Shown here: piece after piece, positions 4,633 to 41,339 of the stretch
Layout of the letters: the number at the start of each line of letters is the position of its first letter
Numbering within the stretch: the stretch's first letter is position 1
Translations under genes and position numbers: made by a program
Notes under the pieces: model-generated
What the model was told of the DNA's origin: nothing
Databases searched by the model: none
The model's input: the letters and a program-made list of their open reading frames with translations, nothing else
Source of the DNA: Escherichia coli
GTDB taxonomy: Bacteria; Pseudomonadota; Gammaproteobacteria; Enterobacterales; Enterobacteriaceae
Reading direction: 5' to 3' (one strand)
DNA length: 64,000 bases
Assembly (NCBI RefSeq): GCF_013315695.1
Contig: NZ_CP054353.1

Positions 4633-5272
4633 CGTCTATATTTCTATTATTGCTTAAATCGCAAAAATCCTCTGCGTTTTACGCCCTTTTTCCGCAACAT
4701 TCTAAAGCCCATAATCACTTCAGTTAACGAAAATAGCATTAAAAGAGGCATATTATGGCTATCCCTGCATTTGGTTTAGGTACTTTCCGTCTGAAAGACG
4801 ACGTTGTTATTTCATCTGTGAAAACGGCGCTAGAACTTGGTTATCGCGCAATTGATACCGCACAAATCTATGATAACGAAGCCGCAGTAGGTCAGGCGAT
4901 TGCAGAAAGTGGCGTGCCGCGTCATGAACTCTACATCACCACTAAAATCTGGATTGAAAATCTCAACAAAGCTAAATTGATCCCGAGTCTGAAAGAGAGC
5001 CTGCAAAAATTGCGTACCGATTATGTTGATCTGACGCTAATCCACTGGCCGTCACCAAACGATGAAGTCTCTGTTGAAGAGTTTATGCAGGCGCTGCTGG
5101 AAGCCAAAAAACATGGGCTGACGCGTGAGATCGGTATTTCCAACTTCACGATCCCATTGATGGAAAAAGCGATTGCTGCTGTTGGCGCTGAAAACATCGC
5201 TACTAACCAGATTGAACTCTCTCCTTATCTGCAAAACCGTAAAGTGGTCGCTTGGGCTAAACAGCACGGCAT

Positions 5273-5281
5273 CCATATTAC
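5273..5281. repeat. IS1 target-site duplication, left copy (CCATATTAC)
   Basis: Identical 9-mer at 6050..6058 directly flanking the other IS1 end. Confidence 0.9.
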
Positions 5282-5336
5282 GGTGATGCTGCCAACTTAC
5301 TGATTTAGTGTATGATGGTGTTTTTGAGGTGCTCCA

Positions 5337-5612
5337 GTGGCTTCTGTTTCTATCAGCTGTCCCTCCTGTTCAGCTACTGACGGGGTGGTGCGTAACGGCA
5401 AAAGCACCGCCGGACATCAGCGCTATCTCTGCTCTCACTGCCGTAAAACATGGCAACTGCAGTTCACTTACACCGCTTCTCAACCCGGTACGCACCAGAA
5501 AATCATTGATATGGCCATGAATGGCGTTGGATGCCGGGCAACAGCCCGCATTATGGGCGTTGGCCTCAACACGATTTTACGTCACTTAAAAAACTCAGGC
5601 CGCAGTCGGTAA
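5337..5612 (+). CDS. insA: IS1 InsA (transposition inhibitor / DNA-binding protein)
   Basis: 91 aa [37 protein letters not shown]... zinc-finger-like N-terminus. Confidence 0.9.
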
Positions 5613-6034
5613 CCTCGCGCATACAGCCGGGCAGTGACGTCATCGTCTGCGCGGAAATGGACGAACAGTGGGGCTATGTCGGGGCTAAATCGCGCCAGCG
5701 CTGGCTGTTTTACGCGTATGACAGGCTCCGGAAGACGGTTGTTGCGCACGTATTCGGTGAACGCACTATGGCGACGCTGGGGCGTCTTATGAGCCTGCTG
5801 TCACCCTTTGACGTGGTGATATGGATGACGGATGGCTGGCCGCTGTATGAATCCCGCCTGAAGGGAAAGCTGCACGTAATCAGCAAGCGATATACGCAGC
5901 GAATTGAGCGGCATAACCTGAATCTGAGGCAGCACCTGGCACGGCTGGGACGGAAGTCGCTGTCGTTCTCAAAATCGGTGGAGCTGCATGACAAAGTCAT
6001 CGGGCATTATCTGAACATAAAACACTATCAATAA
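5531..6034 (+). CDS. insB: IS1 InsB frame (transposase made as InsAB' fusion by -1 frameshift)
   Basis: ORF in -1 frame relative to insA; slippery AAAAAAC at 5589..5595 in the insA/insB overlap. Confidence 0.85.
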
Positions 6035-6049
6035 GTTGGAGTCATTACC

Positions 6050-6058
6050 CCATATTAC
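6050..6058. repeat. IS1 target-site duplication, right copy (CCATATTAC)
   Basis: Identical to 5273..5281. Confidence 0.9.
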
Positions 6059-6331
6059 TTCCTATATGACGCTGGCGTATGGTAAGGCCCTGAAAGATGA
6101 GGTTATTGCTCGTATCGCAGCTAAACACAATGCGACTCCGGCACAAGTGATTCTGGCGTGGGCTATGGGGGAAGGTTACTCAGTAATTCCTTCTTCTACT
6201 AAACGTAAAAACCTGGAAAGTAATCTTAAGGCACAAAATTTACAGCTTGATGCCGAAGATAAAAAAGCGATCGCCGCACTGGATTGCAACGACCGCCTGG
6301 TTAGCCCGGAAGGTCTGGCTCCTGAATGGGA

Positions 6332-7246
6332 TTAAGCCTCTCTGACAGCTCCTCCGGGAGCTGTTTTTACATGCTCGCTAAGGAAATCGATAAAAGCCCG
6401 GATGCGTGTACTTACCGCACGGTCGCTGTAATATACGGCACTGAATGGCATTTCCACTGGCAATACTTTATCTGCCATTAACTCCACCAATTCTCCGCGA
6501 GCGATTTCTCTGTCGATCATGTAGTCGGACAAACACGCAATCCCGTTGCCACTCAGGCAAAGCTGTTTCAGTGTTTCCCCACTATTGGATGACAAACCGT
6601 ACTTCACCTCATGTAATTGTCCATCGCTACAGGCTATCGGCCAGGTATTGAGGGAAGCGGGTTCAGTGAATCCCAGGCAAACATGTTGCTTTAAATCGTC
6701 GATCGTTTCTGGCTTCCCGTAGCGGGAAATATAATCGGGGGAGGCGATAATTTTTCGATAACTGTTAAATAACGGCCTGGCACGTAAGCTGGAATCCGTT
6801 AACGTACCGGCGCGTATCGCGACATCCACTTTTCTTTCGATCAAATTAATAATTGTTTCGGAGGAGACTAGTGATAAAGTGACTTCCGGATAGCGTTCAC
6901 GGAAAGGCTTAATCAACGGCATCAGAAAGTGCAGCACCACTGGAGTTGCGGCATCGATGCGCAACAGTCCACGCGGTGTATTACGCGTCTCCATAATTTC
7001 TGATTCTGCCGCTGCCATCTCCTGCAAAATTGACTGTACGCGACGAAAATAACGCTCGCCTTCTTCCGTCAGGCTAAGTTGCCGCGTGGTCCGATTAAGC
7101 AGGCTAACGCCAAGTTTCATCTCCAGCTTTTTCACCGCCCGGCTTACCGCTGAGTTTGCTTGCCCTAATTGTTCCGCTGCCCGGCTAAAGCTGCCGCTTT
7201 CGACGACCGAAACAAAAATGGCGAGTTCTTCCGACGTGGCTTTCAT
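6332..7246 (-). CDS. yafC: LysR-family transcriptional regulator
   Basis: 304 aa; N-terminal HTH ([23 protein letters not shown]) and LysR substrate-binding domain. Confidence 0.9.
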
Positions 7247-20894: not shown

Positions 20895-21725
<831 letters not shown>

Positions 21726-30051: not shown

Positions 30052-30393
30052 ATGAGCATTACCACAATCAACAGCACCATGCAGGCGCAAATCATGCAGG
30101 ACGTGCAGCGGATGCAGGCCAACGCCCAGGCACCGGTGCTGCCCGCCATGACCTTCAGTTCCACCGACCCGGACGTTTCGTTTAACCGCATTATGAGCGG
30201 TGCGCTCGGTCATGTTGACCAGTTCCAGCAGGTGGCGGAGCAGCAGCAAACGGCTGTCGACACGGGCAAAAGTGATGACCTTGCCGGGGCGATGATCGCC
30301 AGCCAGCAGGCGTCGCTCTCTTTCTCCGCGCTGGTGCAGGTGCGCAACAAAATCGCCACCGGATTTAACGATCTGATGAGTATGTCGATCTAA
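30052..30393 (+). CDS. lfiE: Flag-2 basal body protein, FliE homologue
   Basis: 113 aa. Confidence 0.85.
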   Translation: MSITTINSTMQAQIMQDVQRMQANAQAPVLPAMTFSSTDPDVSFNRIMSGALGHVDQFQQVAEQQQTAVDTGKSDDLAGAMIASQQASLSFSALVQVRNKIATGFNDLMSMSI

Positions 30394-30397
30394 CCCT

Positions 30398-32053
30398 ATG
30401 AATGCACAAATAAAGAAGTTAACCCAGGCGTTTCCGGCGTTTCGACTGCGTCTTGCAGATAACAAACGCTGGGCATTGATGGCGGGAGTGGGGCTTGCCG
30501 TTGCGGCGACGGCGATTATCGTCAGCGTACTGTGGACCGGTAATCGCGGCTACGTCTCGCTCTACGGACGCCAGGAAAATCTGCCCGTGTCGCAGATTGT
30601 CACCGTGCTGGATGGCGAAAAGCTCAGCTACCGCATCGACCCGCAAAGCGGGCAGATTCTGGTGCCGGAAGATGAACTGTCGAAAACGCGCATGACCCTT
30701 GCTGCCAAAGGCGTGCAGGCGATCTTGCCCAGCGGCTACGAGCTGATGGACAAAGACGAAGTGCTCGGCAGCAGCCAGTTCGTGCAGAACGTGCGCTACA
30801 AACGCAGCCTCGAAGGGGAGCTGGCGCAGAGCATTATGTCGCTGGACGCGGTGGAGAGCGCGCGGGTGCATCTGGCGCTCAACGAAGAGAGCTCGTTTGT
30901 GGTCAGCGATGAGCCGCAAAACAGCGCCTCGGTGGTGGTGCGTCTGCATTACGGCGCGAAGCTGAATATGGACCAGGTGAACGCCATTGTGCATCTGGTT
31001 TCCGGCAGCATTCCGGGGCTGCACGCCAGCAAAGTTAGCGTCGTCGATCAGGCGGGAAATCTGCTGACCGACGGCATTGGCGCGGGCGAAGCGGTTTCAG
31101 CCGCTACCCGTAAACGCGATCAGATCCTCAAAGATATTCAGGACAAAACCCGCGCCAGCGTGGCGAACGTGCTGGATTCGCTGGTCGGCAGCGGGAATTA
31201 CCGCGTCAGCGTCATGCCGGATCTCGACCTCAGTAATATCGATGAAACTCAGGAACACTACGGCGACGCGCCGAAAATCAACCGCGAAGAAAACGTGCTG
31301 GACAGCGATACCAATCAGGTGGCGATGGGTGTGCCCGGTTCGCTTAGCAACCGCCCGCCGGTTGCACCTAATCAGGTTACTAACGGCGCGATGCCCGCCG
31401 ACGAAAATCGCTCGCCGGAAGCCCTTTCGAAACACAGCGAAAGCAAGCGCGATTACTCTTACGACCGCAGCGTCCAGCATATTCAGCATCCCAGCTTTAC
31501 GGTGAAACGCCTCAACGTGGCGGTGGTGCTCAATCAAAACGCTCCGGCGCTGAAAAACTGGAAGCCGGAGCAGACCACGCAGCTTACCGCGCTGCTGAAC
31601 AATGCCGCCGGGATCGACGCGCAACGTGGAGACAATCTCACCTTATCGCTGCTTAACTTTGTCCCGCAGGCGGTGCCGGTCGAACCAATTATTCCGTTGT
31701 GGAAAGATGACAGCGTGCTGGCCTGGGTGCGGCTGATTGGCTGCGGCCTGCTGGCGCTGTTGTTGCTGTTCTTTGTGGTGCGCCCGGTAATGAAACGACT
31801 GACGGCGGTACGTGCGCCGGTTATCACACCAGAACCGGAAGCTGTCAGCGAACCGTGGATTGCCATGCCGGAAGAGGAACGCAAAAACGTCGATCTGCCG
31901 TCGCTGCCCGGCGATGACAGCCTGCCGTCCCAGAGTTCCGGCCTCGAAGTAAAACTCGAGTTCCTGCAAAAACTGGCCATGAGCGACACCGATCGCGTAG
32001 CCGAAGTTCTCAGACAATGGATCACCAGCAATGAGCGAATTGACAACAAATAA
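30398..32053 (+). CDS. lfiF: Flag-2 MS-ring protein, FliF homologue
   Basis: 551 aa; N-terminal and C-terminal TM segments flanking a periplasmic ring-building domain. Confidence 0.9.
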   Translation: MNAQIKKLTQAFPAFRLRLADNKRWALMAGVGLAVAATAIIVSVLWTGNRGYVSLYGRQENLPVSQIVTVLDGEKLSYRIDPQSGQILVPEDELSKTRMTLAAKGVQAILPSGYELMDKDEVLGSSQFVQNVRYKRSLEGELAQSIMSLDAVESARVHLALNEESSFVVSDEPQNSASVVVRLHYGAKLNMDQVNAIVHLVSGSIPGLHASKVSVVDQAGNLLTDGIGAGEAVSAATRKRDQILKDIQDKTRASVANVLDSLVGSGNYRVSVMPDLDLSNIDETQEHYGDAPKINREENVLDSDTNQVAMGVPGSLSNRPPVAPNQVTNGAMPADENRSPEALSKHSESKRDYSYDRSVQHIQHPSFTVKRLNVAVVLNQNAPALKNWKPEQTTQLTALLNNAAGIDAQRGDNLTLSLLNFVPQAVPVEPIIPLWKDDSVLAWVRLIGCGLLALLLLFFVVRPVMKRLTAVRAPVITPEPEAVSEPWIAMPEEERKNVDLPSLPGDDSLPSQSSGLEVKLEFLQKLAMSDTDRVAEVLRQWITSNERIDNK

Positions 32054-33041
32054 GAGCAACAGCTACCTGGAACAGGCGGCGATCCTGCTGCTGTGTCTGG
32101 GCGAAGAGGCGGCGGCAACGGTGATGCAAAAACTCAGCCGTGAAGAAGTGGTGCGCCTGAGCGAAAACATGGCGCGGCTTTCCGGTGTCAAAACCAGCAT
32201 GGCGCGCAAAGTGATCAACAACTTCTTTGATGAGTTCCGCGAACAGAGCGGGATCAATGGCGCGTCGCGATCTATGTTGCAGGGCATTCTCAACAAAGCG
32301 CTAGGCACCGAGATCGCCAGCAGCGTGATCAACGGCATCTACGGCGATGAGATCCGCTCGCGGATGGCGCGACTGCAATGGGTGGAACCGCGCCAGCTGG
32401 CGATGCTGATCTCCGAAGAGCATCTGCAATTGCAGGCAGTATTCCTCGCGTTTCTGACGCCGGAAATCTCGGCGGCGGTGCTCTCGTATCTCAATGAATC
32501 GGTGCAAAACGAAATTCTCTATCGGGTGGCGAAACTCAACGACGTCAACCGCGACGTGGTGGATGAACTGGACAGGCTGATTGAACGCGGCCTGTCGGTG
32601 CTTTCGGAGCACGGCTCGAAGGTGAAAGGCATCAAACAGGCGGCGGATATCGTCAACCGCTTCCAGGGCAACCAGCAGGTGATCCTCGACCAGATGCGCG
32701 AGCGCGACGAAGACGTGCTGGAGCAGCTTCAGGATGAGATGTACGACTTCTTTATCCTCAGCCGCCAGAACGAAGAGGTGCGTCGACGTCTGCTCGACGA
32801 AGTACCGATGGAAGACTGGGCGGTAGCGCTGAAAGGCACCGAAGCCCTGTTGCGCCGTTCCATTTACGCGGTGATGCCAAAACGTCAGGCGCAGCAACTG
32901 GAAGCGATCACCGCGCGTCTGGGGCCGGTGCCGGTCAGCCGTATCGAACAGATCCGCCGCGAAATCATGGGCATTGCCCGTGAACTGGAAGAGGCGGGCG
33001 AAATTCAGCTACAGCTCTTTGCGGAACAGACGGCGGAGTAA
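32031..33041 (+). CDS. lfiG: Flag-2 rotor/switch protein, FliG homologue
   Basis: 336 aa. Confidence 0.9.
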   Translation: MSELTTNKSNSYLEQAAILLLCLGEEAAATVMQKLSREEVVRLSENMARLSGVKTSMARKVINNFFDEFREQSGINGASRSMLQGILNKALGTEIASSVINGIYGDEIRSRMARLQWVEPRQLAMLISEEHLQLQAVFLAFLTPEISAAVLSYLNESVQNEILYRVAKLNDVNRDVVDELDRLIERGLSVLSEHGSKVKGIKQAADIVNRFQGNQQVILDQMRERDEDVLEQLQDEMYDFFILSRQNEEVRRRLLDEVPMEDWAVALKGTEALLRRSIYAVMPKRQAQQLEAITARLGPVPVSRIEQIRREIMGIARELEEAGEIQLQLFAEQTAE

Positions 33042-33043
33042 CC

Positions 33044-33754
33044 ATGACCATTGAAACACTGCGCGGGCGCTATCGCCTGCACCGTTTTCCGCCGCGCCAG
33101 CGTGCGGTGACCGGAGAACCGCTCACCGCCAGCATTAGCGCCGCCGATTACCAGCGCCAGTTGATGGACGGTTTTCAGGAAGGGCTGCAAAAAGGGTTTG
33201 CTCAGGGAATGACCGAAGGCCAGGAGCAGGGCTTTAGCGAAGGTCATCAACAAGGTTTTGCCGAGGGGCGACGCCAGGGCTACACCGAAGGCAGCCTCGC
33301 CGGGCAGCAGGAAGGGCGCAAACAGTTTGTTGACGCGGCACAGCCGCTGGAAGCCATCAGCGGAAAAGTGAACGACTTTCTCGCCCATATCGAACGCAAA
33401 CAGCGGGAAGATTTGCTGCAACTGGTGGAAAAAGTCACCCGCCAGGTGATCCGCTGCGAACTGGCGCTGCAACCGACGCAGTTGCTGGCGCTGGTGGAAG
33501 AGGCACTGGCGGCCTTCCCGGCAATGCCGGAGACCCTCCAAGTGATGCTAAGTACGGAAGAATTTAACCGCTTGCGCGACGCGGTGCCGGAAAAGGTCAG
33601 CGAATGGGGGCTGACGCCTTCGCCGGATCTGCCGCCGGGTGAATGCCGGGTGATCACCGATAAATCCGAACTGGATATCGGCTGCGAGCACCGCCTGGAA
33701 CAATGCATGACCGCGCTACAAGAGACGCTAACGCCGGAGTCACAGGGTGAGTGA
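33044..33754 (+). CDS. lfiH: Flag-2 export ATPase regulator, FliH homologue
   Basis: 236 aa; glycine-rich repeats GFAQGMTEGQEQGFSEGHQQGFAEGRRQGYTEG. Confidence 0.85.
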   Translation: MTIETLRGRYRLHRFPPRQRAVTGEPLTASISAADYQRQLMDGFQEGLQKGFAQGMTEGQEQGFSEGHQQGFAEGRRQGYTEGSLAGQQEGRKQFVDAAQPLEAISGKVNDFLAHIERKQREDLLQLVEKVTRQVIRCELALQPTQLLALVEEALAAFPAMPETLQVMLSTEEFNRLRDAVPEKVSEWGLTPSPDLPPGECRVITDKSELDIGCEHRLEQCMTALQETLTPESQGE

Positions 33755-35084
33755 TTTTTCCGCTTTCGATAACGCCCTGCGCTCGCTGGAGTCGATCCCG
33801 CTGGCCCGCGTCGCCGGGCGGCTGGTGCGCCTTAATGGCATCCTGCTGGAGAGCGTCGGCTGCCCGCTAATGACCGGGCAGCTGTGTCGCATCGAAAGCG
33901 CCAACCACACGCTTATCGACGCGCAGGCCGTAGGCTTTAATCGCGATATCACTTACTTAATGCCGTTTAAACAGCCGGTCGGCCTGATGGCGGGGGCGCG
34001 CGTCTTCCCGGAAGAAAAAGCCCACGACATCCTGATTGGCGAAAGCTGGTTAGGCCGCGTGGTTAACGGCCTCGGCGAACCGCTGGATGGCAAAGGCCGC
34101 CTGAACGGCAACGACCTTCTGCCGCCGCTGCCGCCGTCGGTTAATCCCTTAACCCGCCGTTCGGTGGACGAACCGCTGGACGTGGGCGTGAAAGCGATCA
34201 ACGGCCTGCTGACCATCGGCAAAGGCCAGCGTGTCGGGCTGATGGCGGGCAGCGGCGTCGGGAAAAGCGTGCTGCTGGGGATGATCACCCGCCAGACCAA
34301 AGCCGACATTGTGGTGGTCGGGTTGATTGGCGAACGCGGGCGCGAAGTAAAAGAGTTTATCGACCACTCGCTGGGCGCGGACGGGCTGGCAAAGTCTATC
34401 GTCGTCGTCGCGCCCGCCGATGAATCGCCGCTGATGCGCCTGAAAGCCACCGAACTGTGCCACTCCATCGCCGCCTGGTTTCGCGACCGCGGGCATCACG
34501 TTTTACTGCTGGTGGATTCCCTGACCCGTTACGCGATGGCCCAGCGGGAAATAGCTCTCTCGCTCGGCGAACCGCCCGCCACCAAAGGCTATCCGCCGTC
34601 GGCATTCGGCATGATCCCCAAACTGGTCGAGAGCGCAGGCAACAGCGAAAGCGCGGGATCGATGACCGCCATCTACACCGTGTTGGCGGAAGGCGACGAT
34701 CAGCAAGATCCGATTGTCGACTGCGCCCGTGCGGTGCTGGACGGGCATATCGTATTAACCCGCAAACTGGCGGAAGCGGGGCACTATCCGGCTATTGATA
34801 TCGGCCAGTCGATCAGCCGTTGCATGAATCAGGTGACCAGCCTGGAACATCAGCAATCCGCCCGTGCGTTAAAGCAAAACTACGCCGCGTATATGGAGAT
34901 CAAACCGCTGATCCCGCTCGGCGGCTACGTGGCAGGTGCCGACGCCAGCGTCGACAAAGCGGTAAAAATGTTCCCGGCTATCGAGCGTTTTTTGCGCCAG
35001 GAGATGCGCGAACCTGCCTCCCTGGAACTGGTGCAAAGCCGCCTGCAAATTCTCTTTCCTGGTGTCAAAAAGGCAGAACAGTAA
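33747..35084 (+). CDS. lfiI: Flag-2 flagellum-specific ATPase, FliI homologue
   Basis: 445 aa; Walker A GSGVGKS, F1/T3SS ATPase family. Confidence 0.93.
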   Translation: MSDFSAFDNALRSLESIPLARVAGRLVRLNGILLESVGCPLMTGQLCRIESANHTLIDAQAVGFNRDITYLMPFKQPVGLMAGARVFPEEKAHDILIGESWLGRVVNGLGEPLDGKGRLNGNDLLPPLPPSVNPLTRRSVDEPLDVGVKAINGLLTIGKGQRVGLMAGSGVGKSVLLGMITRQTKADIVVVGLIGERGREVKEFIDHSLGADGLAKSIVVVAPADESPLMRLKATELCHSIAAWFRDRGHHVLLLVDSLTRYAMAQREIALSLGEPPATKGYPPSAFGMIPKLVESAGNSESAGSMTAIYTVLAEGDDQQDPIVDCARAVLDGHIVLTRKLAEAGHYPAIDIGQSISRCMNQVTSLEHQQSARALKQNYAAYMEIKPLIPLGGYVAGADASVDKAVKMFPAIERFLRQEMREPASLELVQSRLQILFPGVKKAEQ

Positions 35085-35086
35085 CC

Positions 35087-35521
35087 ATGCGACAAATCAT
35101 CGACACCCTGGCGCAGTTGCAGCGCCTGCGGGATAAATCGGTCAAAGACAAAACCGTCGAGCTGGCAAAGCAAAAACAGATTTGTGCGGGTTATGACAAC
35201 AATATCAAAGCATTAGGCTACCTGGTGGAGAAAACATCTGCGGGCGCGGCAGCGTCGGTGGAATCGCTGAAAAACGTCAGCGACTACAAAGGCACCTTGC
35301 GCAAGGTGATCGCCTGGCAGGAGCAGGAAAAAACGCTGGCTAACATCAAAGCCACGCGAATGCAGAAAAACCTGACGGCGGCGGCGTGCGAAGAGAAAGT
35401 GGTGGCCCTGACGCTGGACGACAAACGCCGCGAGCAGCAAGAAAGTGCCACGGCGAAAGCGCAAAAAGCGGTGGATGACATCGCCGTCCAGTGCTGGCTG
35501 CGGCATAAGTTAGCGGAGTAG
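35087..35521 (+). CDS. lfiJ: Flag-2 export chaperone/stalk protein, FliJ homologue
   Basis: 144 aa coiled-coil protein starting at ATG 35087 right after lfiI stop. Confidence 0.8.
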   Translation: MRQIIDTLAQLQRLRDKSVKDKTVELAKQKQICAGYDNNIKALGYLVEKTSAGAAASVESLKNVSDYKGTLRKVIAWQEQEKTLANIKATRMQKNLTAAACEEKVVALTLDDKRREQQESATAKAQKAVDDIAVQCWLRHKLAE

Positions 35522-35523
35522 CC

Positions 35524-35928
35524 ATGAAAACGGTCATCACCTTCGGCACCTTCGATGTGTTTCATGTCGGTCATCTGCGCCTTTTACAACGCGCCCGCAC
35601 GCTGGGCGAACGGCTGCTGGTCGGCGTATCGTCCGACGCCTTAAATATCGCCAAAAAGGGCAGAGCACCGGTTTACCCTCAGGATGACCGCATGTCGATC
35701 ATCGCCGGGCTGGCGTGCGTGGATGGCGTATTTCTGGAGGAATCGCTGGAGCAGAAAGCGGAGTATCTGCGGGGGTACCGTGCGGATATTTTAGTGATGG
35801 GCGATGACTGGGCAGGAAAGTTTGACAGCTTCGCGTATATTTGTGAGGTAGTGTATTTCCCCCGCACGCCGTCGGTGTCGACGACGGGGATTATTGAGGT
35901 GATTAGGGGTAAATCAGCCACCTACTGA
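35524..35928 (+). CDS. Glycerol-3-phosphate cytidylyltransferase (TagD-like, makes CDP-glycerol)
   Basis: 134 aa MKTVITFGTFDVFHVGHLRLLQRA... with HxGH motif and ...VVYFPRTPSVSTTGIIEVI; start codon 2 nt after lfiJ stop with SD GGAG. Confidence 0.85.
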   Translation: MKTVITFGTFDVFHVGHLRLLQRARTLGERLLVGVSSDALNIAKKGRAPVYPQDDRMSIIAGLACVDGVFLEESLEQKAEYLRGYRADILVMGDDWAGKFDSFAYICEVVYFPRTPSVSTTGIIEVIRGKSATY

Positions 35929-35976
35929 TTTAATTCCCGCAGTGAGAGAAGATGATGCCGTTTGGCTATGTTAAAT

Positions 35977-36079
35977 ATGTTTAAAAAATCGCGTTTTTTC
36001 GACATATCCCCAAAACATGTCGATGGCATAAACGTATTCCAACGACATGTTTAAAAATCGCATTTTATCGACATATCCC
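35977..36079. repeat. Two copies of a ~34-bp imperfect direct repeat plus a 10-bp inverted repeat
   Basis: ATGTTTAAAAAATCGCGTTTTTTCGACATATCCC (35977..36010) and ATGTTTAAAAATCGCATTTTATCGACATATCCC (36047..36079); inverted arms AAACATGTCG 36013..36022 / CGACATGTTT 36043..36052. Confidence 0.7.
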
Positions 36080-38521
36080 TGACGATTCCTTGCCCGCCAA
36101 CGCCTCCACAATCACCATCGTCGCCCGTTCTCCCGCCTTGCCATCCATAAACGCATCGCAATAGTGATGACGAATCTTCGTAAGCCGCGCCTGCACCGCC
36201 CCCCAGTCAAACGCCTCTGACAACAAGTAACGCAACTCTGCCATATCATGAGCCACCGGCAATATTTCGCGGATTTGCTGATCGGCGCTCTCCGGCGTGG
36301 AGTAGCTTTTCTCGCCGTCGAGCAATTCACTCATGCCCGGAAAGTCGAGCAGGATCACCCGCTTATCAACGTGGATAGCATCGAAAATAAAGCCGCTGTT
36401 ATCGGTCAGCACGTAATCGGCCTTTGCCAGCAGCGCCAGCGTGTGACGGGCGGAGTCGGTGCGCTGTTTTAAATGCCTGCGAGCCAGGGCCAGCGATGCA
36501 GCTTCTTCCGGGCGCGAGCAGGTGCCGTGGTGCAGTTTGCAAATCAGGTTCACATCATCGCTTAAGCGCCCCAATTTTTCTGCCCAGTGGGGCAGGGAGC
36601 TTAATGCGCCAAACGTTGGGGCGTAGAGTACGGTGGGTTTACGCTCGTCCAGTTTGATATTTTCCGGCAACGCGCGGTCGAACGTGGCGTTATGCCAGGC
36701 GTCGAAGCGCGGGTTGCCGACCACTATTGCGTTGCTGAGGTGCGCCAGCGCCTGCTGGCTGTAGTGGCTGTAACACAAAATGCGCTGATAAAAACGGTTC
36801 CAGTCGGCGTGGTTCCACGTTTCTTTGGCTAAGCCGTACATGGCGCGAATGTTCAGGGGGGAAAGGCCACTGAGCGCAGGCGTGTGATAGGGGCTGACCA
36901 GGCATTTTACTCGCTGACCGTGTGCCTGCATTTCTGACAGACGCATACCTTTAAGCTGCGGATCGTCGATGTTTTTCAGTGTTTCCAGCATCTCATCCAG
37001 AAACGGTTTAAACACGCGGTCATTGATCACCAGTGTGCAGCTCTGCCCCTGCGCCTGCAGGGCGGTGATGATTGGGCGGTAGAGCGCGTAGTGGAATGAG
37101 GTTTCCATAAAAAAGCCGATGGTATCGGCGATAGGTAATGTAGATGGCTTGGTGGCTACGGGTAACTTATTGAAGTAGTGGTTAATGTTATCAGTCGCTT
37201 TTTTCTCGATATCACTAAAGCCCGGTCGCTGATAACAAAGGCTCGGGTAACAGGCCAGCCATTTGTCGGTGCGCAGCAGCGGCTGCCAGCCGTCTTCCAG
37301 CGAATGCTCATCGTTGTTCATCTGCTGCGCCAGCTGCGGGTAGTAGCGGCGGTTCACCAGATAAGCGCACACTTTGCGGCAGTCCCGCGCGTGCACCAGC
37401 CCAGGCAAACTTTTTAGCATCGTTCCCTGCGAAATTTCGCCGCCGAGGATCATCACCTGCCAGGGAATTTTCGCCAGGCTCGCCAGCAGCGCGTTCAGCA
37501 CCTGAATATGTTTCTCCTGTTTGAGAATAACCGCGTCATCTTCCAGCAGCAGGTAGTTTTGCCAGCCGCGTTGTTGCGCCAGACGCAGTGCCTGCAAGTG
37601 TGATTGCTGGCGGCCCCGTTGACCGTTTTCATTTTCACTGGCGGCAAGGCGGGTGATCTTCTCAGGAGGAATATGCAGCAATGTGAGTTCTTCACGGATC
37701 TGCTGTAAGCGATCCGGGCGTTTATCCAGATTCAGCAGAACGATCTGATCGATCGCCTGATGATGAGTGGCGTTATGCAGACTCAGATAAGCATTGCGGA
37801 GCAGCGGATCGCGGACGATATCCGTAAGCGTCGCGTTTACTGGCGTGCTGGCCCCGAGAATAAAGTCTTTATCAAAGGTGTTGTGGCTGTGCGAGATACA
37901 CAAAATCGTGCGCTCGCCGGGCAGTTGTAGCGGGTTAACGCTGAAATTGTCGGTGAAACTTTTCTCTTCGCCTAAATTGCAATCGTCATCGTAGCGGTGC
38001 TTTTTCAGGTAGTTACGGTGATAGCAAAAGGTGCCGTTGAGGATGTTATGCGGGCCGAAGCTGCGGCTTTGAAAGATGCGATTGATGTGGCTGTACCAGA
38101 TGGGGATCTGGTCGGAACCGGAGATGAGCGCCCGGTTTTTTTGCATCATAGCGATGGTGTAAGAGATTTTATCTGCCGGGTAGTAGTCGTCATCGTCCAT
38201 GCAGAGGATGTATTCGCCGCGCGCCAGTTCGTTGAGCATATTGCGTTTTTTGCCCAGCGGCAGTTTTTCCGGGTGATGGATGTAGCGGATGTTGAAGGCT
38301 TCCGGTGTGCCATTGGTCAGGCGGTCGATGATGTGTTGATGGCTTTGCGGGGAATCGTCGAGGATGATGAGTTCGCGGCGGTCTGCCGGGTAGTCCTGAT
38401 AGCGGTACATATAAAGCAGGTACGGCAGGAATGCGCTGCGGTTCCAGGTTGGCGTGACGACGCTGACGGACGGTTTTTCGCGCTGGGTGGCGAGTGTTTT
38501 GATAATGGTTGGTGTTGGCAT
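36065..38521 (-). CDS. Large multidomain glycosyltransferase: N-terminal GT2 domain, central GT25-like domain, C-terminal CDP-glycerol glycerophosphotransferase (TagB/TagF-like) domain
   Basis: GT2: VSVVTPTWNR...ILDDSP...CMDDDDYY; GT25-like: IVLLNLDKRPDRLQQI...YLLLEDDAVIL; TagF-like: VLYAPTFGALSS...VLTDNSGFIFDA; start set to ATG 38521 (MPTPTII), track start 38593 is GTG inside a repeat. Confidence 0.75.
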   Translation of the reverse strand: MPTPTIIKTLATQREKPSVSVVTPTWNRSAFLPYLLYMYRYQDYPADRRELIILDDSPQSHQHIIDRLTNGTPEAFNIRYIHHPEKLPLGKKRNMLNELARGEYILCMDDDDYYPADKISYTIAMMQKNRALISGSDQIPIWYSHINRIFQSRSFGPHNILNGTFCYHRNYLKKHRYDDDCNLGEEKSFTDNFSVNPLQLPGERTILCISHSHNTFDKDFILGASTPVNATLTDIVRDPLLRNAYLSLHNATHHQAIDQIVLLNLDKRPDRLQQIREELTLLHIPPEKITRLAASENENGQRGRQQSHLQALRLAQQRGWQNYLLLEDDAVILKQEKHIQVLNALLASLAKIPWQVMILGGEISQGTMLKSLPGLVHARDCRKVCAYLVNRRYYPQLAQQMNNDEHSLEDGWQPLLRTDKWLACYPSLCYQRPGFSDIEKKATDNINHYFNKLPVATKPSTLPIADTIGFFMETSFHYALYRPIITALQAQGQSCTLVINDRVFKPFLDEMLETLKNIDDPQLKGMRLSEMQAHGQRVKCLVSPYHTPALSGLSPLNIRAMYGLAKETWNHADWNRFYQRILCYSHYSQQALAHLSNAIVVGNPRFDAWHNATFDRALPENIKLDERKPTVLYAPTFGALSSLPHWAEKLGRLSDDVNLICKLHHGTCSRPEEAASLALARRHLKQRTDSARHTLALLAKADYVLTDNSGFIFDAIHVDKRVILLDFPGMSELLDGEKSYSTPESADQQIREILPVAHDMAELRYLLSEAFDWGAVQARLTKIRHHYCDAFMDGKAGERATMVIVEALAGKESSGICR

Positions 38522-38699: not shown

Positions 38700-39629
38700 T
38701 CACGTCAGCAGCGAAAATGCTGACAGCAGCGGCTCTGCCGCACATAACGACTGGAGCTGCTGGCGAATCGCCGCAGCATTTTCACTCTCTCGCCAGCGTT
38801 CAAACACCGCAAAAAGGGCGAAAATATCCTCCTTCCGCAGCGGTGAACCATCCAGCGTCCATAAACTGATTAACGTGCGGATGAGATAAAAATCACACAC
38901 CAGCGGGCAATAATCTGCTCCGTCTGCCTGCCCAATCACGTCGTGATAAACGCGGTAAATCAGCCAGTTGCGCATCATCCACGGCGCGGCGGCAAAATGC
39001 TGTTGCCAGGTGGTTTGCCACTGCACCTTAAGCTGCTGTTGCAACAAAGCTTCGCTGTTGGCGTCATGCAACGTCAGCAAAGTCACCTGCAACGGTAGCG
39101 AGGCTTTGCGCGGGCTTTCCGGCAAAATCGACCAGTCAAACGCAAAACTCCCGAGCAGCGTCACCAGTTGGCGCGCCAGTTGTGGCACGGGTGGGAGTTG
39201 GGCGAACTGTGCCTGTAGCGTGCCTTTTTGTGCATGATCCCCCAGCGCCTGTGGCAGCGTCGTCAAGCGGGCAAGAATATCTCCGTCTCTGCCCGGCATT
39301 TTACTGGCGCGGGAGAGCAAAATCCCGACGGCATACAGGGAAAGCTCCGGGGTTAAATCGGGGAGCGTAAGGGTGCTCAAAATGGCCTGGTTTACTATCG
39401 CATCGCGCGCGGATAGCTCGGCGGCATTGTCTTCCACAGGGCGGTAGGTGAGCTGTAAATCAAAGGCCCTGGCATCGTTGAGCACCGCTTTGCAACTTTC
39501 AATATCGGTCAATGCCAGGCTCTGGCGAATCTCATTCTTCCAGACCTTGCGGACGTACAAAGGCGAATCGGGATATTGCGTCATAAAATTGCGCACGTAT
39601 TCCGGTTCGTAACATTCAATAAAACTCAT
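38700..39629 (-). CDS. Hypothetical protein, Flag-2 internal, function unknown
   Basis: 309 aa from ATG 39629 (MSFIECYEPEYVRNF...); no motif I can recognise; track ORF starts at upstream TTG 39668. Confidence 0.6.
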   Translation of the reverse strand: MSFIECYEPEYVRNFMTQYPDSPLYVRKVWKNEIRQSLALTDIESCKAVLNDARAFDLQLTYRPVEDNAAELSARDAIVNQAILSTLTLPDLTPELSLYAVGILLSRASKMPGRDGDILARLTTLPQALGDHAQKGTLQAQFAQLPPVPQLARQLVTLLGSFAFDWSILPESPRKASLPLQVTLLTLHDANSEALLQQQLKVQWQTTWQQHFAAAPWMMRNWLIYRVYHDVIGQADGADYCPLVCDFYLIRTLISLWTLDGSPLRKEDIFALFAVFERWRESENAAAIRQQLQSLCAAEPLLSAFSLLT

Positions 39630-39756
39630 AGGTGGCTTCCAGTCTTTATTACTTTGCGGAATGTGCAATAAGCGTGCCGGGAATTTTTGTAATCAAAAAC
39701 AAGGGATTGAGAATCAGGCGGAAAATCCGTTTCCGCGATGGGGGAAGGAATTGTCG

Positions 39757-41323: not shown

Positions 41324-41339
41324 TGGCACGGCAATTGCT
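41324..41339 (+). promoter_or_regulatory. Sigma-54 promoter upstream of lfgB operon
   Basis: TGGCACG-gcaa-TTGCT, exact match to -24/-12 consensus TGGCACG-N4-TTGCW; 37 nt upstream of lfgB ATG. Confidence 0.75.

What the first reader, a model, noticed from the sequence alone, without database searches (positions are those of the whole stretch)
35524..35928. TagD-like CDP-glycerol synthase translationally coupled to the flagellar export operon
The 134-aa ORF has the HxGH motif (GTFDVFHVGH) and C-terminal signature of glycerol-3-phosphate cytidylyltransferase, an enzyme of Gram-positive teichoic acid synthesis. Its ATG is 2 nt after the lfiJ stop with SD GGAG in the lfiJ 3' end, so it is probably expressed as the last gene of lfiEFGHIJ.
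Basis: partly seen in the sequence, partly recalled or inferred. Interest (0 to 1): 0.85.

Follow-up and report, generated by a model that had tools for sequence, protein, structure and literature searches.

The report
CDP-glycerol synthase gene in Flag-2 locus
The small gene after lfiJ in this E. coli lateral-flagella (Flag-2) locus is very probably a genuine CDP-glycerol synthase that supplies a neighbouring TagF-like transferase, probably to add glycerol phosphate to the lateral flagellin glycan, but the gene and this idea were already published in 2020 and are still untested at the bench.

Summary
There is a 134-aa ORF at 35524-35928 (+) with HVGH at residues 14-17 and RTPSVSTT at 114-121. 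Its ATG lies 2 nt after the lfiJ stop, and GGAG lies 5 nt upstream.

The window is the E. coli chromosomal Flag-2 locus. The protein aligns end to end with B. subtilis TagD (PDB 1coz, E 5e-32, 47% identity). It is 65% identical, without gaps, to the C. jejuni HS:1 capsule enzyme HS1.11, which was shown biochemically to make CDP-glycerol.

The convergent neighbour (36065-38521, annotated only "glycosyltransferase") is a three-domain fusion of GT2, a second GT-A domain and a TagF-like glycerophosphotransferase. That supplies a consumer for CDP-glycerol.

The gene occurs in 1276 of 5426 complete E. coli genomes, always next to lfiJ, with dN/dS about 0.11.

Most likely mechanism: TagD-like enzyme makes CDP-glycerol, and the TagF-like domain adds glycerol phosphate to an O-glycan on lateral flagellin. 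This parallels C. difficile FtaD and P. aeruginosa PA1091.

De Maayer et al. 2020 (PMC6993521) already reported TagD in Flag-2 variable region 1 in 235 strains and proposed this role. Modest interest; no experiment exists yet.

The parts
30052..35521 (+). lfiEFGHIJ (Flag-2 fliEFGHIJ homologues). lfiJ is 35087-35521 with stop TAG at 35519-35521.
   Evidence: RefSeq annotation of a 99.99% identical sister strain; ORF list.
35515..35518 (+). GGAG Shine-Dalgarno inside the 3' end of lfiJ, 5 nt before the ATG.
   Evidence: Read directly from the sequence. Conserved in L008, L009 and L010.
35524..35928 (+). tagD-like gene: 134-aa CTP:glycerol-3-phosphate cytidylyltransferase (predicted CDP-glycerol synthase).
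   Evidence: 65% identical to the C. jejuni GCT and 47% to B. subtilis TagD. dN/dS about 0.11.
35975..36052 (.). Two hairpins (35975-36007, and 36013-36052 with 18-nt arms) between the convergent genes. Candidate bidirectional terminator region.
   Evidence: RNA fold z = -2.9. The simple terminator scan found no canonical terminator here.
36065..38521 (-). 818-aa fusion protein of three domains: GT2, a second GT-A (GT25-like fold) and a TagF-like glycerophosphotransferase. It is the predicted consumer of CDP-glycerol.
   Evidence: Pfam GT2 1.5e-17 and Glyphos_transf 2.4e-5; AF2 model with pLDDT 88.9; Foldseek hits to COLGALT1 and TagF.
37772..38473 (-). GT2 (GT-A) domain, aa about 17-250.
37157..37756 (-). 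Second GT-A domain, aa about 256-455. The fold resembles the GT25 catalytic domain of COLGALT1, but sequence evidence is not significant.
   Evidence: Foldseek 9evj E 2e-17 over about 550 columns spanning both GT-A domains. Pfam GT25 gives only E 4.2.
36086..37126 (-). TagF-like CDP-glycerol glycerophosphotransferase domain, aa about 466-812. Motifs: ETSFH, GNPRFD, LYAPTFG, KLHHG, TDNSGFIFD.
   Evidence: Homologues are named CDP-glycerol glycerophosphotransferase. Profile A1 hits Cps3D 8qoy 6e-16, TagF 3l7j 4e-12 and TarL 1e-11. Foldseek TagF 3l7k TM 0.59. Aligns with the proven glycerol-P transferase domain of HS1.09 across PRxD, YAPT and HH.
38700..39629 (-). lafV, a FliB-like flagellin lysine N-methylase homologue, upstream of the fusion gene on the minus strand.
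   Evidence: NCBIfam NF038110 E 6.5e-10, below cut-off; FliB_C Pfam in orthologous loci; named LafV in PMC6993521.
39665..39679 (-). Sigma-54-like element CGGCACGCTTATTGC (1 mismatch to TGGCAC-N5-TTGC) just upstream of lafV. Candidate promoter for lafV and the fusion gene.
   Evidence: A weak, single pattern match; the pattern is not enriched over the whole window.

Best explanation
The gene encodes a CTP:sn-glycerol-3-phosphate cytidylyltransferase (EC 2.7.7.39) of the HS1.11 subfamily common in Gram-negative bacteria. It is carried as the last gene of the lafK/lfiEFGHIJ transcription unit, so it would be made together with the lateral-flagellar export apparatus. It converts the housekeeping metabolites CTP and glycerol-3-phosphate into CDP-glycerol. 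The convergently transcribed 818-aa enzyme then uses its two GT-A domains to build a short O-glycan on the lateral flagellin LafA in the cytoplasm. Its C-terminal TagF-like domain transfers glycerol phosphate from CDP-glycerol onto that glycan, as a cap or a short chain. Shown here: family membership, conservation of key residues, close similarity to a proven enzyme, the TagF-like partner, operon geometry and purifying selection. Inferred: enzyme activity, co-transcription and coupling, the acceptor (LafA glycan) and the number of glycerol phosphates added.
For: - Family: Pfam CTP_transf_like 3.8e-19. TIGR01518 GCT is the best NCBIfam model. Full-length match to TagD 1coz at 5e-32 and TarD 2b7l at 2.4e-27.
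- Similarity to a proven enzyme: 65% identity, 82% positives and no gaps to the C. jejuni GCT sequence P0379. This matches HS1.11, which was purified and shown to form CDP-(2R)-glycerol from CTP and L-glycerol-3-P.
- Residues: those invariant with TagD, TarD and HS1.11 include H14, H17, K44, R56, D67, D95, W96, R114, T115 and S119-T121.
- Control: HS1.11 itself also falls below the TIGR01518 cut-off (89.3 bits; TagD scores 234.2).
- Partner: a TagF-like domain in the adjacent gene.
- Recurrence: the same pairing of tagD-like and Glyphos_transf genes occurs in Cedecea Flag-2, a Salmonella/Citrobacter-type Flag-2, a Methylibium LPS-like cluster and C. jejuni HS:1.
- Geometry: 2-nt gap with an SD; ATGA overlap with lfiJ in L011 and with lafV in Cedecea. 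No promoter-like site was found between 34800 and the ATG.
- Population: present in 1276 of 5426 E. coli genomes, always beside fliJ. dN/dS is 0.11, and 0.145 for the partner gene.
- Mechanistic precedent: the TagF-like FtaD puts a CDP-activated phospho-moiety on O-GlcNAc of C. difficile flagellin, and P. aeruginosa PA1091 fuses glycosyltransferase and phosphotransferase.
Against: - No biochemical or mass-spectrometric data exist for this protein or for E. coli LafA. A literature search found no flagellin shown to carry glycerol phosphate.
- Flag-2 was not expressed and LafA was undetectable in ST131 EC958 under laboratory conditions.
- The protein scores below the curated TIGR01518 cut-off (113.8 against 165.4).
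- TagD Lys46 is not strictly conserved. It aligns to G46 in the HMMER alignment and to R47 in the MAFFT alignment.
- The RYVDEVI dimer motif is ACVDGVF here.
- Close homologues in Opacimonas and Ornithinibacter lie outside flagellar loci with no recognisable TagF-like neighbour.
- Selection on the gene is more relaxed than on the core genes lfiH, lfiI and lfiJ (dN/dS 0.02-0.04).
Confidence: 0.7

Rival explanations
1. It is a cytidylyltransferase of the same fold that activates a different phospho-compound (for example a phospho-amino acid as in C. difficile, phosphoethanolamine, phosphocholine or a phosphonate). The TagF-like domain would then transfer that group instead of glycerol phosphate.
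For: It scores below the GCT equivalog cut-off. The loop around TagD K46 reads KKGRAPVY, which resembles the K-G-x-P-V loop of ECT (alignment). The TagF-like FtaD uses CDP-N-methylthreonine, so TagF-like domains are not restricted to CDP-glycerol. PDB relatives include ECT, CCT and the Fom1 cytidylyltransferase domain.
Against: The same KK-x-R-x-P-(V/I)-Y loop is present in the C. jejuni enzyme proven to use glycerol-3-phosphate, at 65% gap-free identity. ECT and CCT hits are 15 to 25 orders of magnitude weaker than TagD. No phosphoserine/threonine phosphatase, LicC-type transferase or methyltransferase of the Fta type is present in this variable region.
Confidence: 0.1
2. It does make CDP-glycerol, but for a non-flagellar acceptor (LPS core, O-antigen, capsule or another surface protein). 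Its position in Flag-2 would then be incidental cargo.
For: The subfamily is used in capsule and LPS-like loci elsewhere. Variable region 1 is described as a hotspot for cargo genes. ST131 carries an extra 2.9-kb insertion right beside the gene.
Against: In all 1276 E. coli genomes the gene sits directly after fliJ(lfiJ). It is flanked by a flagellin-methylase homologue and embedded in two flagellar operons. Its G+C (0.556) equals that of Flag-2 overall (0.553). Linkage to lfiJ or lafV by 2-nt gaps or 4-nt overlaps recurs in three genera.
Confidence: 0.1
3. It is a silent passenger. Flag-2 is cryptic in E. coli, so the gene currently has no physiological role.
For: Flag-2 was not expressed in EC958. 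Flag-2 is inactivated in strain 042 and deleted in many E. coli according to PMC6993521. The near-identical strain MSB1_4I has a deletion in lfgI.
Against: The reading frame is intact in four divergent lineages, with dN/dS 0.09-0.13 at dS about 0.3. In this window every Flag-2 gene checked is intact, including lfgI.
Confidence: 0.08
4. It is a different nucleotidyltransferase: an ADP-heptose synthase domain, FAD synthase or phosphopantetheine adenylyltransferase. Some RefSeq records name it 'FAD synthase family protein'.
For: Weaker matches to rfaE domain II (74.6 bits), FAD_syn (E 9e-4) and PPAT models. The RefSeq name appears.
Against: All of these score lower than GCT and far below their own cut-offs. 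The FAD_syn match covers only residues 2-29 around HxGH. The C-terminal RTxxxSTT cytidylyltransferase signature is present.
Confidence: 0.02

Closest known systems
TagD in Flag-2 variable region 1 as reported by De Maayer et al. 2020 (PMC6993521)
   Same: The same gene family in the same position, between lfiJ and lfgN. It was reported in 235 strains of ten genera with the same proposal that teichoic-acid-type chemistry decorates the Flag-2 flagellin.
   Different: That paper lists TagB-type phosphotransferases in only 65 strains and classes the common E. coli enzyme simply as GT2. Here the E. coli glycosyltransferase is shown to carry a hidden TagF-like domain, and the TagD-like protein is tied to a biochemically proven relative.
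C. jejuni HS:1 capsule enzymes HS1.11 (GCT) and HS1.09 (TagF-like plus glycosyltransferase)
   Same: 65% gap-free identity to the GCT, with shared subfamily motifs VGVSSD, KK-x-R-x-P-x-Y, VFLEE and RTPS(V/I)STT. The partner is likewise a multidomain protein that joins a TagF-like domain to glycosyltransferase domains.
   Different: The C. jejuni pair builds a poly(galactosyl-glycerol-phosphate) capsule on a lipid anchor. Here the genes sit in a flagellar locus and the acceptor is presumed to be a protein glycan. The glycosyltransferase domains are GT-A here and GT-B in HS1.09.
B. subtilis TagD and S. aureus TarD (wall teichoic acid GCT; PDB 1coz/1n1d, 2b7l)
   Same: Same length, full-length alignment, HxGH, K44 and R113/T114/S118-T120 equivalents.
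   Different: Only 47% and 40% identity. Below the TIGR01518 cut-off. The RYVDEVI dimer motif and K46 are altered. The cellular role is not wall teichoic acid.
C. difficile FtaABCD (Type A flagellin modification) and P. aeruginosa PA1088-PA1091 (b-type)
   Same: Flagellum-linked genes in which a CDP-activated phospho-group is transferred by a TagF-like enzyme onto an O-linked sugar of flagellin. PA1091 also fuses glycosyltransferase and phosphotransferase.
   Different: Those systems activate phosphothreonine with another type of nucleotidyltransferase and include a phosphatase-like enzyme and an N-methyltransferase. Here a TagD-type GCT is the only donor-synthesis gene, which predicts glycerol phosphate.
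A. pleuropneumoniae Cps3B/Cps7B with the TagF-like polymerase Cps3D
   Same: A Gram-negative GCT feeding a TagF-like enzyme. Cps3D (8qoy) is the best PDB sequence match of the partner domain profile.
   Different: Cps3B/7B are about 70% identical to TagD and so belong to the TagD clade, not the HS1.11 clade. Their product is a capsule polymer.

Membership tests
CTP:glycerol-3-phosphate cytidylyltransferase (GCT, EC 2.7.7.39) | HxGH motif (TagD His14, His17) | tested here: met
   HVGH at residues 14-17; invariant in alignment A2. The feature list is taken from PMC8262930.
CTP:glycerol-3-phosphate cytidylyltransferase (GCT, EC 2.7.7.39) | RTxGISTT cytidylyltransferase signature (TagD Arg113) | tested here: met
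   RTPSVSTT at 114-121. R, T and STT are invariant. The G to S and I to V changes are shared with the proven C. jejuni enzyme, which has RTPSISTT.
CTP:glycerol-3-phosphate cytidylyltransferase (GCT, EC 2.7.7.39) | Lys44 and Lys46, which contact the phosphates of CDP-glycerol | tested here: inconclusive
   K44 is invariant. TagD K46 aligns to G46 (HMMER) or R47 (MAFFT). The loop KKGRAPVY matches KKHRYPIY of the proven C. jejuni GCT.
CTP:glycerol-3-phosphate cytidylyltransferase (GCT, EC 2.7.7.39) | RYVDEVI dimer-interface motif | tested here: inconclusive
   The motif is ACVDGVF here; only V, D and V are kept. The proven C. jejuni enzyme is equally divergent (KCVSCVF).
CTP:glycerol-3-phosphate cytidylyltransferase (GCT, EC 2.7.7.39) | Score above the curated NCBIfam TIGR01518 equivalog cut-off (165.4 bits) | tested here: not met
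   113.8 bits. Control: the proven HS1.11 also fails (89.3 bits on a machine-read sequence with reading errors) while TagD scores 234.2. The cut-off therefore delimits the TagD clade, not the activity.
CTP:glycerol-3-phosphate cytidylyltransferase (GCT, EC 2.7.7.39) | Full-length homology to a solved GCT structure and close similarity to a biochemically proven member | tested here: met
   1coz E 5e-32 over residues 1-129. 65% identity without gaps to the C. jejuni GCT.
CTP:glycerol-3-phosphate cytidylyltransferase (GCT, EC 2.7.7.39) | [quoted passage not shown] | not testable with these tools
   Needs an enzyme assay.
TagF/TagB-type CDP-glycerol glycerophosphotransferase (partner domain, aa 466-812 of the 818-aa protein) | GT-B-like TagF fold with the conserved PRxD, YAPT(W/F) and second catalytic His (TagF H584) motifs | tested here: met
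   Pfam Glyphos_transf 2.4e-5. Profile hits Cps3D, TagF and TarL at 6e-16 to 1e-11, with KLHH aligned to TagF RMHY. Foldseek TagF TM 0.57-0.59. H208 of the domain is invariant in A1.
TagF/TagB-type CDP-glycerol glycerophosphotransferase (partner domain, aa 466-812 of the 818-aa protein) | First catalytic His (TagF H444) | tested here: inconclusive
   An ETSFH motif resembles the ESFHG of HS1.09, but neither HMMER nor BLAST aligned it. Its equivalence with TagF H444 rests on my recollection of the motif, not on an alignment.
Flagellin post-glycosylation phosphotransfer systems (C. difficile FtaABCD, P. aeruginosa PA1088-1091) | Flagellum-linked glycosyltransferase plus TagF-like phosphotransferase | tested here: met
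   GT2 and TagF-like domains are fused in one gene between lfiJ and lfgN. PA1091 is likewise a fusion.
Flagellin post-glycosylation phosphotransfer systems (C. difficile FtaABCD, P. aeruginosa PA1088-1091) | Donor pathway for CDP-(N-methyl)threonine (FtaA/B/C-type enzymes) | tested here: not met
   Variable region 1 of this window holds only the tagD-like gene, the fusion gene and lafV. It therefore works like these systems but is not a member.
Flag-2 variable region 1 cargo (De Maayer et al. 2020) | Located between lfiJ and lfgN of an enterobacterial Flag-2 locus | tested here: met
   Gene order is lfiJ, tagD-like, GT fusion, lafV, lfgN.

The most novel reading that the evidence does not exclude
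E. coli lateral flagellin (LafA) carries an O-glycan capped or extended with glycerol phosphate. It would be installed in the cytoplasm by a single GT2/GT-A/TagF-like tri-domain enzyme using CDP-glycerol from this gene. That would be the first demonstrated CDP-glycerol-dependent, teichoic-acid-type modification of a flagellin. In the extreme version the filament would carry a poly(glycerol phosphate) chain.
Probability: 0.45. Interest if true: 0.55.

Novelty: already known. Interest (0 to 1): 0.3.

Why it matters
If confirmed at the bench, Flag-2 flagellin would gain an anionic glycerol-phosphate decoration. That could change filament surface charge, antigenicity, phage or TLR5 recognition, and adhesion. 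It would also extend the newly described CDP-activated post-glycosylation modification of flagellins from phosphothreonine (C. difficile, P. aeruginosa) to phosphoglycerol.

In practice, the analysis gives a ready hypothesis for about a quarter of complete E. coli genomes. It also corrects uninformative or misleading database names: "adenylyltransferase/cytidyltransferase family protein", "FAD synthase family protein" and plain "glycosyltransferase". The gene itself and its proposed role are not new.

Tried and rejected
- **Original Flag-2 paper.** Ren et al. 2005 (PMC545627) is not held, so I could not check how the gene was first named.
- **TIGR01518 cut-off.** I first read the failure to reach the cut-off as evidence against GCT function. 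I dropped this after the control showed the proven C. jejuni enzyme also fails.
- **Machine-read HS1.11 sequence.** The supplement text had reading errors that produced spurious gaps (62% identity). I replaced it with the database C. jejuni sequence (65%, no gaps).
- **Middle domain of the partner.** A Pfam scan of this domain alone gave no significant hit (GT25 E 4.2). Only the fold comparison supports a GT-A/GT25-like domain.
- **Terminator.** The simple scan found no canonical terminator after the gene. Only AT-flanked hairpins are present.
- **Sigma-54 pattern.** The search is not enriched over the window (76 matches against 89 expected). Only the exact hits upstream of lfgB and lafB and the 1-mismatch hit upstream of lafV are worth noting.
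- **Published precedent.** A literature search for glycerol-phosphate-bearing flagellin found none.
- **Not done.** I did not run a structure prediction of the 134-aa protein, because the full-length sequence match to solved TagD made it unnecessary. I did not scan genome or metagenome collections for further loci.
- **Rejected alternatives.** ADP-heptose synthase, FAD synthase and PPAT all score lower and only partially. A compositional island is also rejected: G+C is 0.556 against 0.553 for Flag-2 overall.

Full report
**Observation.** The ORF at 35524-35928 (+) is real and encodes 134 aa, MKTVITFGTFDVFHVGHLRLL...PRTPSVSTTGIIEVIRGKSATY. The lfiJ stop TAG is at 35519-35521 and the ATG follows after two bases (CC). 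GGAG lies at 35515-35518, five bases before the ATG. HVGH occupies residues 14-17, and RTPSVSTT (residues 114-121) is a variant of the RTxGISTT signature.

**Where the window comes from.** A 3.5-kb stretch around the gene is 100% identical to the chromosome of E. coli MSB1_4I and 90-99% identical to about 1280 other complete E. coli genomes. The window runs from the rrnH region through fadE, lpcA and rayT, then the whole Flag-2 (lateral flagella) locus from lfhA to lafU, then dinB. The gene lies in what De Maayer et al. call variable region 1, between lfiJ and lfgN. Here that region holds three genes: the cytidylyltransferase (+), an 818-aa "glycosyltransferase" (-) and a FliB-like lysine methylase homologue, lafV (-).

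**What the protein is.**
- Pfam gives CTP_transf_like at 3.8e-19. The only other significant hit, FAD_syn, covers just residues 2-29 around HxGH.
- In NCBIfam the best model is TIGR01518, glycerol-3-phosphate cytidylyltransferase, at 113.8 bits. rfaE domain II scores 74.6 bits. The TIGR01518 score is below the curated cut-off of 165.4, which explains RefSeq's generic name.
- Against solved structures the best matches are B. subtilis TagD (1coz, E 5e-32, residues 1-129 of 134) and S. aureus TarD (2.4e-27). Ethanolamine- and choline-phosphate cytidylyltransferases are far weaker.
- Identity to TagD is 47%.

**Closest characterised relative.** The most informative comparison is with HS1.11 of the C. 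jejuni HS:1 capsule locus. Bourland et al. purified it and showed it forms CDP-(2R)-glycerol from CTP and L-glycerol-3-phosphate. It is itself only 45% identical to TagD. The machine-read sequence in that paper's supplement has reading errors. I therefore recovered the clean C. jejuni sequence from the protein database. The window protein is 65% identical to it (83/128, 82% positives) with no gaps.

Both proteins share features that set this subfamily apart from the TagD clade: VGVSSD, the loop KK-x-R-x-P-(V/I)-Y, VFLEE and RTPS(V/I)STT. As a control, HS1.11 also falls below the TIGR01518 cut-off (89.3 bits) while TagD scores 234.2. The cut-off therefore delimits a clade rather than the activity.

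Residues that the literature names as essential are conserved: His14, His17, Arg113 and Lys44. TagD Lys46 has no strict equivalent. It aligns to G46 or R47 depending on the aligner, but the loop is the same as in the proven C. jejuni enzyme.

The subfamily is large and very conserved, at 68-79% identity across Gammaproteobacteria, Betaproteobacteria and Actinobacteria.

**The neighbour supplies a consumer for CDP-glycerol.** The 818-aa protein has a clear N-terminal GT2 domain and a weak Pfam match to Glyphos_transf at residues 621-747.
- Homologues of its C-terminal 360 residues are free-standing proteins of about 355 aa, named CDP-glycerol glycerophosphotransferase, in Cedecea, Enterobacter, Pantoea, Buttiauxella, Rahnella and Erwinia.
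- A profile of these hits the TagF-like capsule polymerase Cps3D (6e-16), TagF (4e-12) and TarL (1e-11). KLHH aligns to the TagF segment that holds His584.
- An AlphaFold model (mean pLDDT 88.9) shows three domains.
- Foldseek matches the first two domains together to the tandem GT-A enzyme COLGALT1 (E 2e-17, about 550 columns). It matches the third domain to TagF (TM 0.57-0.59).
- The domain also aligns with the experimentally proven glycerol-phosphate transferase domain of C. jejuni HS1.09 across the PRxD, YAPT and HH motifs.

The same pairing recurs elsewhere:
- Cedecea davisae Flag-2 has lfiJ, GT2, lafV, the tagD-like gene and GT9 on one strand, and two Glyphos_transf genes on the other.
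- A Salmonella/Citrobacter-type Flag-2 has the tagD-like gene overlapping lfiJ by ATGA, with a free Glyphos_transf plus an 847-aa fusion.
- A Methylibium LPS-like cluster has the tagD-like gene abutting Glyphos_transf.
- Two other homologues (Opacimonas, Ornithinibacter) have no recognisable TagF-like neighbour.

**Expression.**
- The gene follows lfiJ by 2 nt in four divergent E. coli lineages, with the junction GCGGAGTA(G/A)CCATG conserved.
- It overlaps the upstream gene by 4 nt in two other genera.
- No promoter-like site lies between 34800 and the ATG.
- The 136-bp spacer to the convergent gene folds into two hairpins (z = -2.9), which could end both transcripts.
- The partner gene is the last gene of the lfgA-lfgM-lfgN-lafV string on the other strand, and a sigma-54-like element with one mismatch sits just upstream of lafV.

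Co-transcription and translational coupling remain inferences.

**Population and selection.** The gene is present in 1276 of 5426 complete E. coli genomes, always beside fliJ(lfiJ), at 92-100% nucleotide identity. Among four alleles with dS 0.22-0.34, dN/dS is 0.09-0.13. The partner gene gives 0.145, and the core genes lfiH, lfiI and lfiJ give 0.02-0.04. The gene is thus maintained by selection, though less tightly than the export apparatus. Its G+C (0.556) equals that of Flag-2 as a whole (0.553). In this window lfgI is intact, whereas the sister strain MSB1_4I has a deletion there.

**Most likely mechanism.** The enzyme makes CDP-glycerol from CTP and glycerol-3-phosphate, both housekeeping metabolites in E. 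coli. The tri-domain enzyme glycosylates lateral flagellin, and its TagF-like domain adds glycerol phosphate to the glycan. The closest mechanistic precedent is the C. difficile Type A flagellin modification. There the TagF-like FtaD transfers N-methyl-phosphothreonine from a CDP donor onto O-GlcNAc of FliC. In P. aeruginosa PA1091 the glycosyltransferase and phosphotransferase are fused, as here. This locus lacks the Fta-type donor pathway, so it works like those systems but is not a member.

**Prior knowledge.** De Maayer et al. 2020 reported TagD (cd02171) in Flag-2 variable region 1 of 235 strains across ten genera, together with TagB and LtaS orthologues. They proposed that such glycopolymers form part of the Flag-2 flagellin glycan. 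They list TagB in only 65 strains and the common enzyme GT2-1 in 222. If GT2-1 is the E. coli fusion protein, which I infer from its prevalence and did not check, the hidden TagF-like domain found here would explain that mismatch.

TagD had also been noted in a Geobacillus flagellin glycosylation island. No experimental test exists. Flag-2 was silent in ST131 EC958, and I found no report of a glycerol-phosphate-bearing flagellin.

**Verdict.** This analysis adds three things:
- the link to a biochemically proven close relative;
- a control showing why automated annotation withholds the specific name;
- recognition of the fused TagF-like acceptor enzyme.

Interest is modest (0.3). Enzyme assays and LafA mass spectrometry would settle the question.

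Noticed in passing
window 36065-38521 (-): The gene annotated only as 'glycosyltransferase' is a three-domain fusion: GT2, a second GT-A domain and a TagF-like glycerophosphotransferase. The first two domains together resemble human collagen galactosyltransferase COLGALT1 in fold (Foldseek E 2e-17). The three parts also occur as separate proteins in other genera.
   Followed up: yes
window 35975-36079: The spacer between the convergent tagD-like and fusion genes holds a 30-nt direct repeat (35981-36010 and 36050-36079, 90% identical), an AT-rich hairpin (35975-36007) and an 18-nt-arm inverted repeat (36013-36052). The 12-mer TCGACATATCCC occurs only at these two places in the window. In ST131 a 2.9-kb insertion with three hypothetical genes sits at this spot (L008 6440-8828).
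   Followed up: partly
window 48000-48310 and 21638-21724: A tandem array of 2.6 copies of a 117-bp unit lies between lfgJ and lfgK. The unit is made of two palindromic elements that I recognise from memory as REP-type, so the array looks like a BIME. An 88-bp related copy lies near rayT, the REP-associated transposase gene.
   Followed up: partly
window 41324-41338 (+), 54424-54438 (+), 39665-39679 (-): Exact sigma-54 consensus TGGCAC-N5-TTGC occurs immediately upstream of lfgB and near the 5' end of lafB (fliD). A one-mismatch copy lies upstream of lafV. This fits LafK/sigma-54 control of Flag-2 operons, although the pattern is not enriched over the whole window.
   Followed up: no
window 46569-47684 (lfgI), versus L001 about 33395-33410: lfgI (P-ring protein, 371 aa) is intact in the window. 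The otherwise 99.99% identical strain MSB1_4I has a deletion of about 230 bp there and is annotated as a pseudogene. The window therefore comes from a sister strain with a potentially functional Flag-2.
   Followed up: yes
window about 4755-6335: By the sister strain's annotation, dkgB is split by an IS1A insertion (IS1 at about 5337-6034). The window matches that stretch at 99.97%.
   Followed up: no
RefSeq records: The same protein is named 'adenylyltransferase/cytidyltransferase family protein' in some E. coli RefSeq records and 'FAD synthase family protein' in others. The second name rests on a 28-residue match around HxGH and is misleading.
   Followed up: partly
protein P0456 (E. coli, 131 aa): E. 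coli also has a second, different tagD-like protein, 71% identical to the machine-read HS1.11 query. It presumably sits in a polysaccharide locus outside Flag-2. Its genomic context was not examined.
   Followed up: no
window 30052-30393 versus 30148-30393: The full 113-aa lfiE ORF is present in the window. RefSeq annotates a shorter 81-aa FliE in the sister strain, while other E. coli records use the long form.
   Followed up: no
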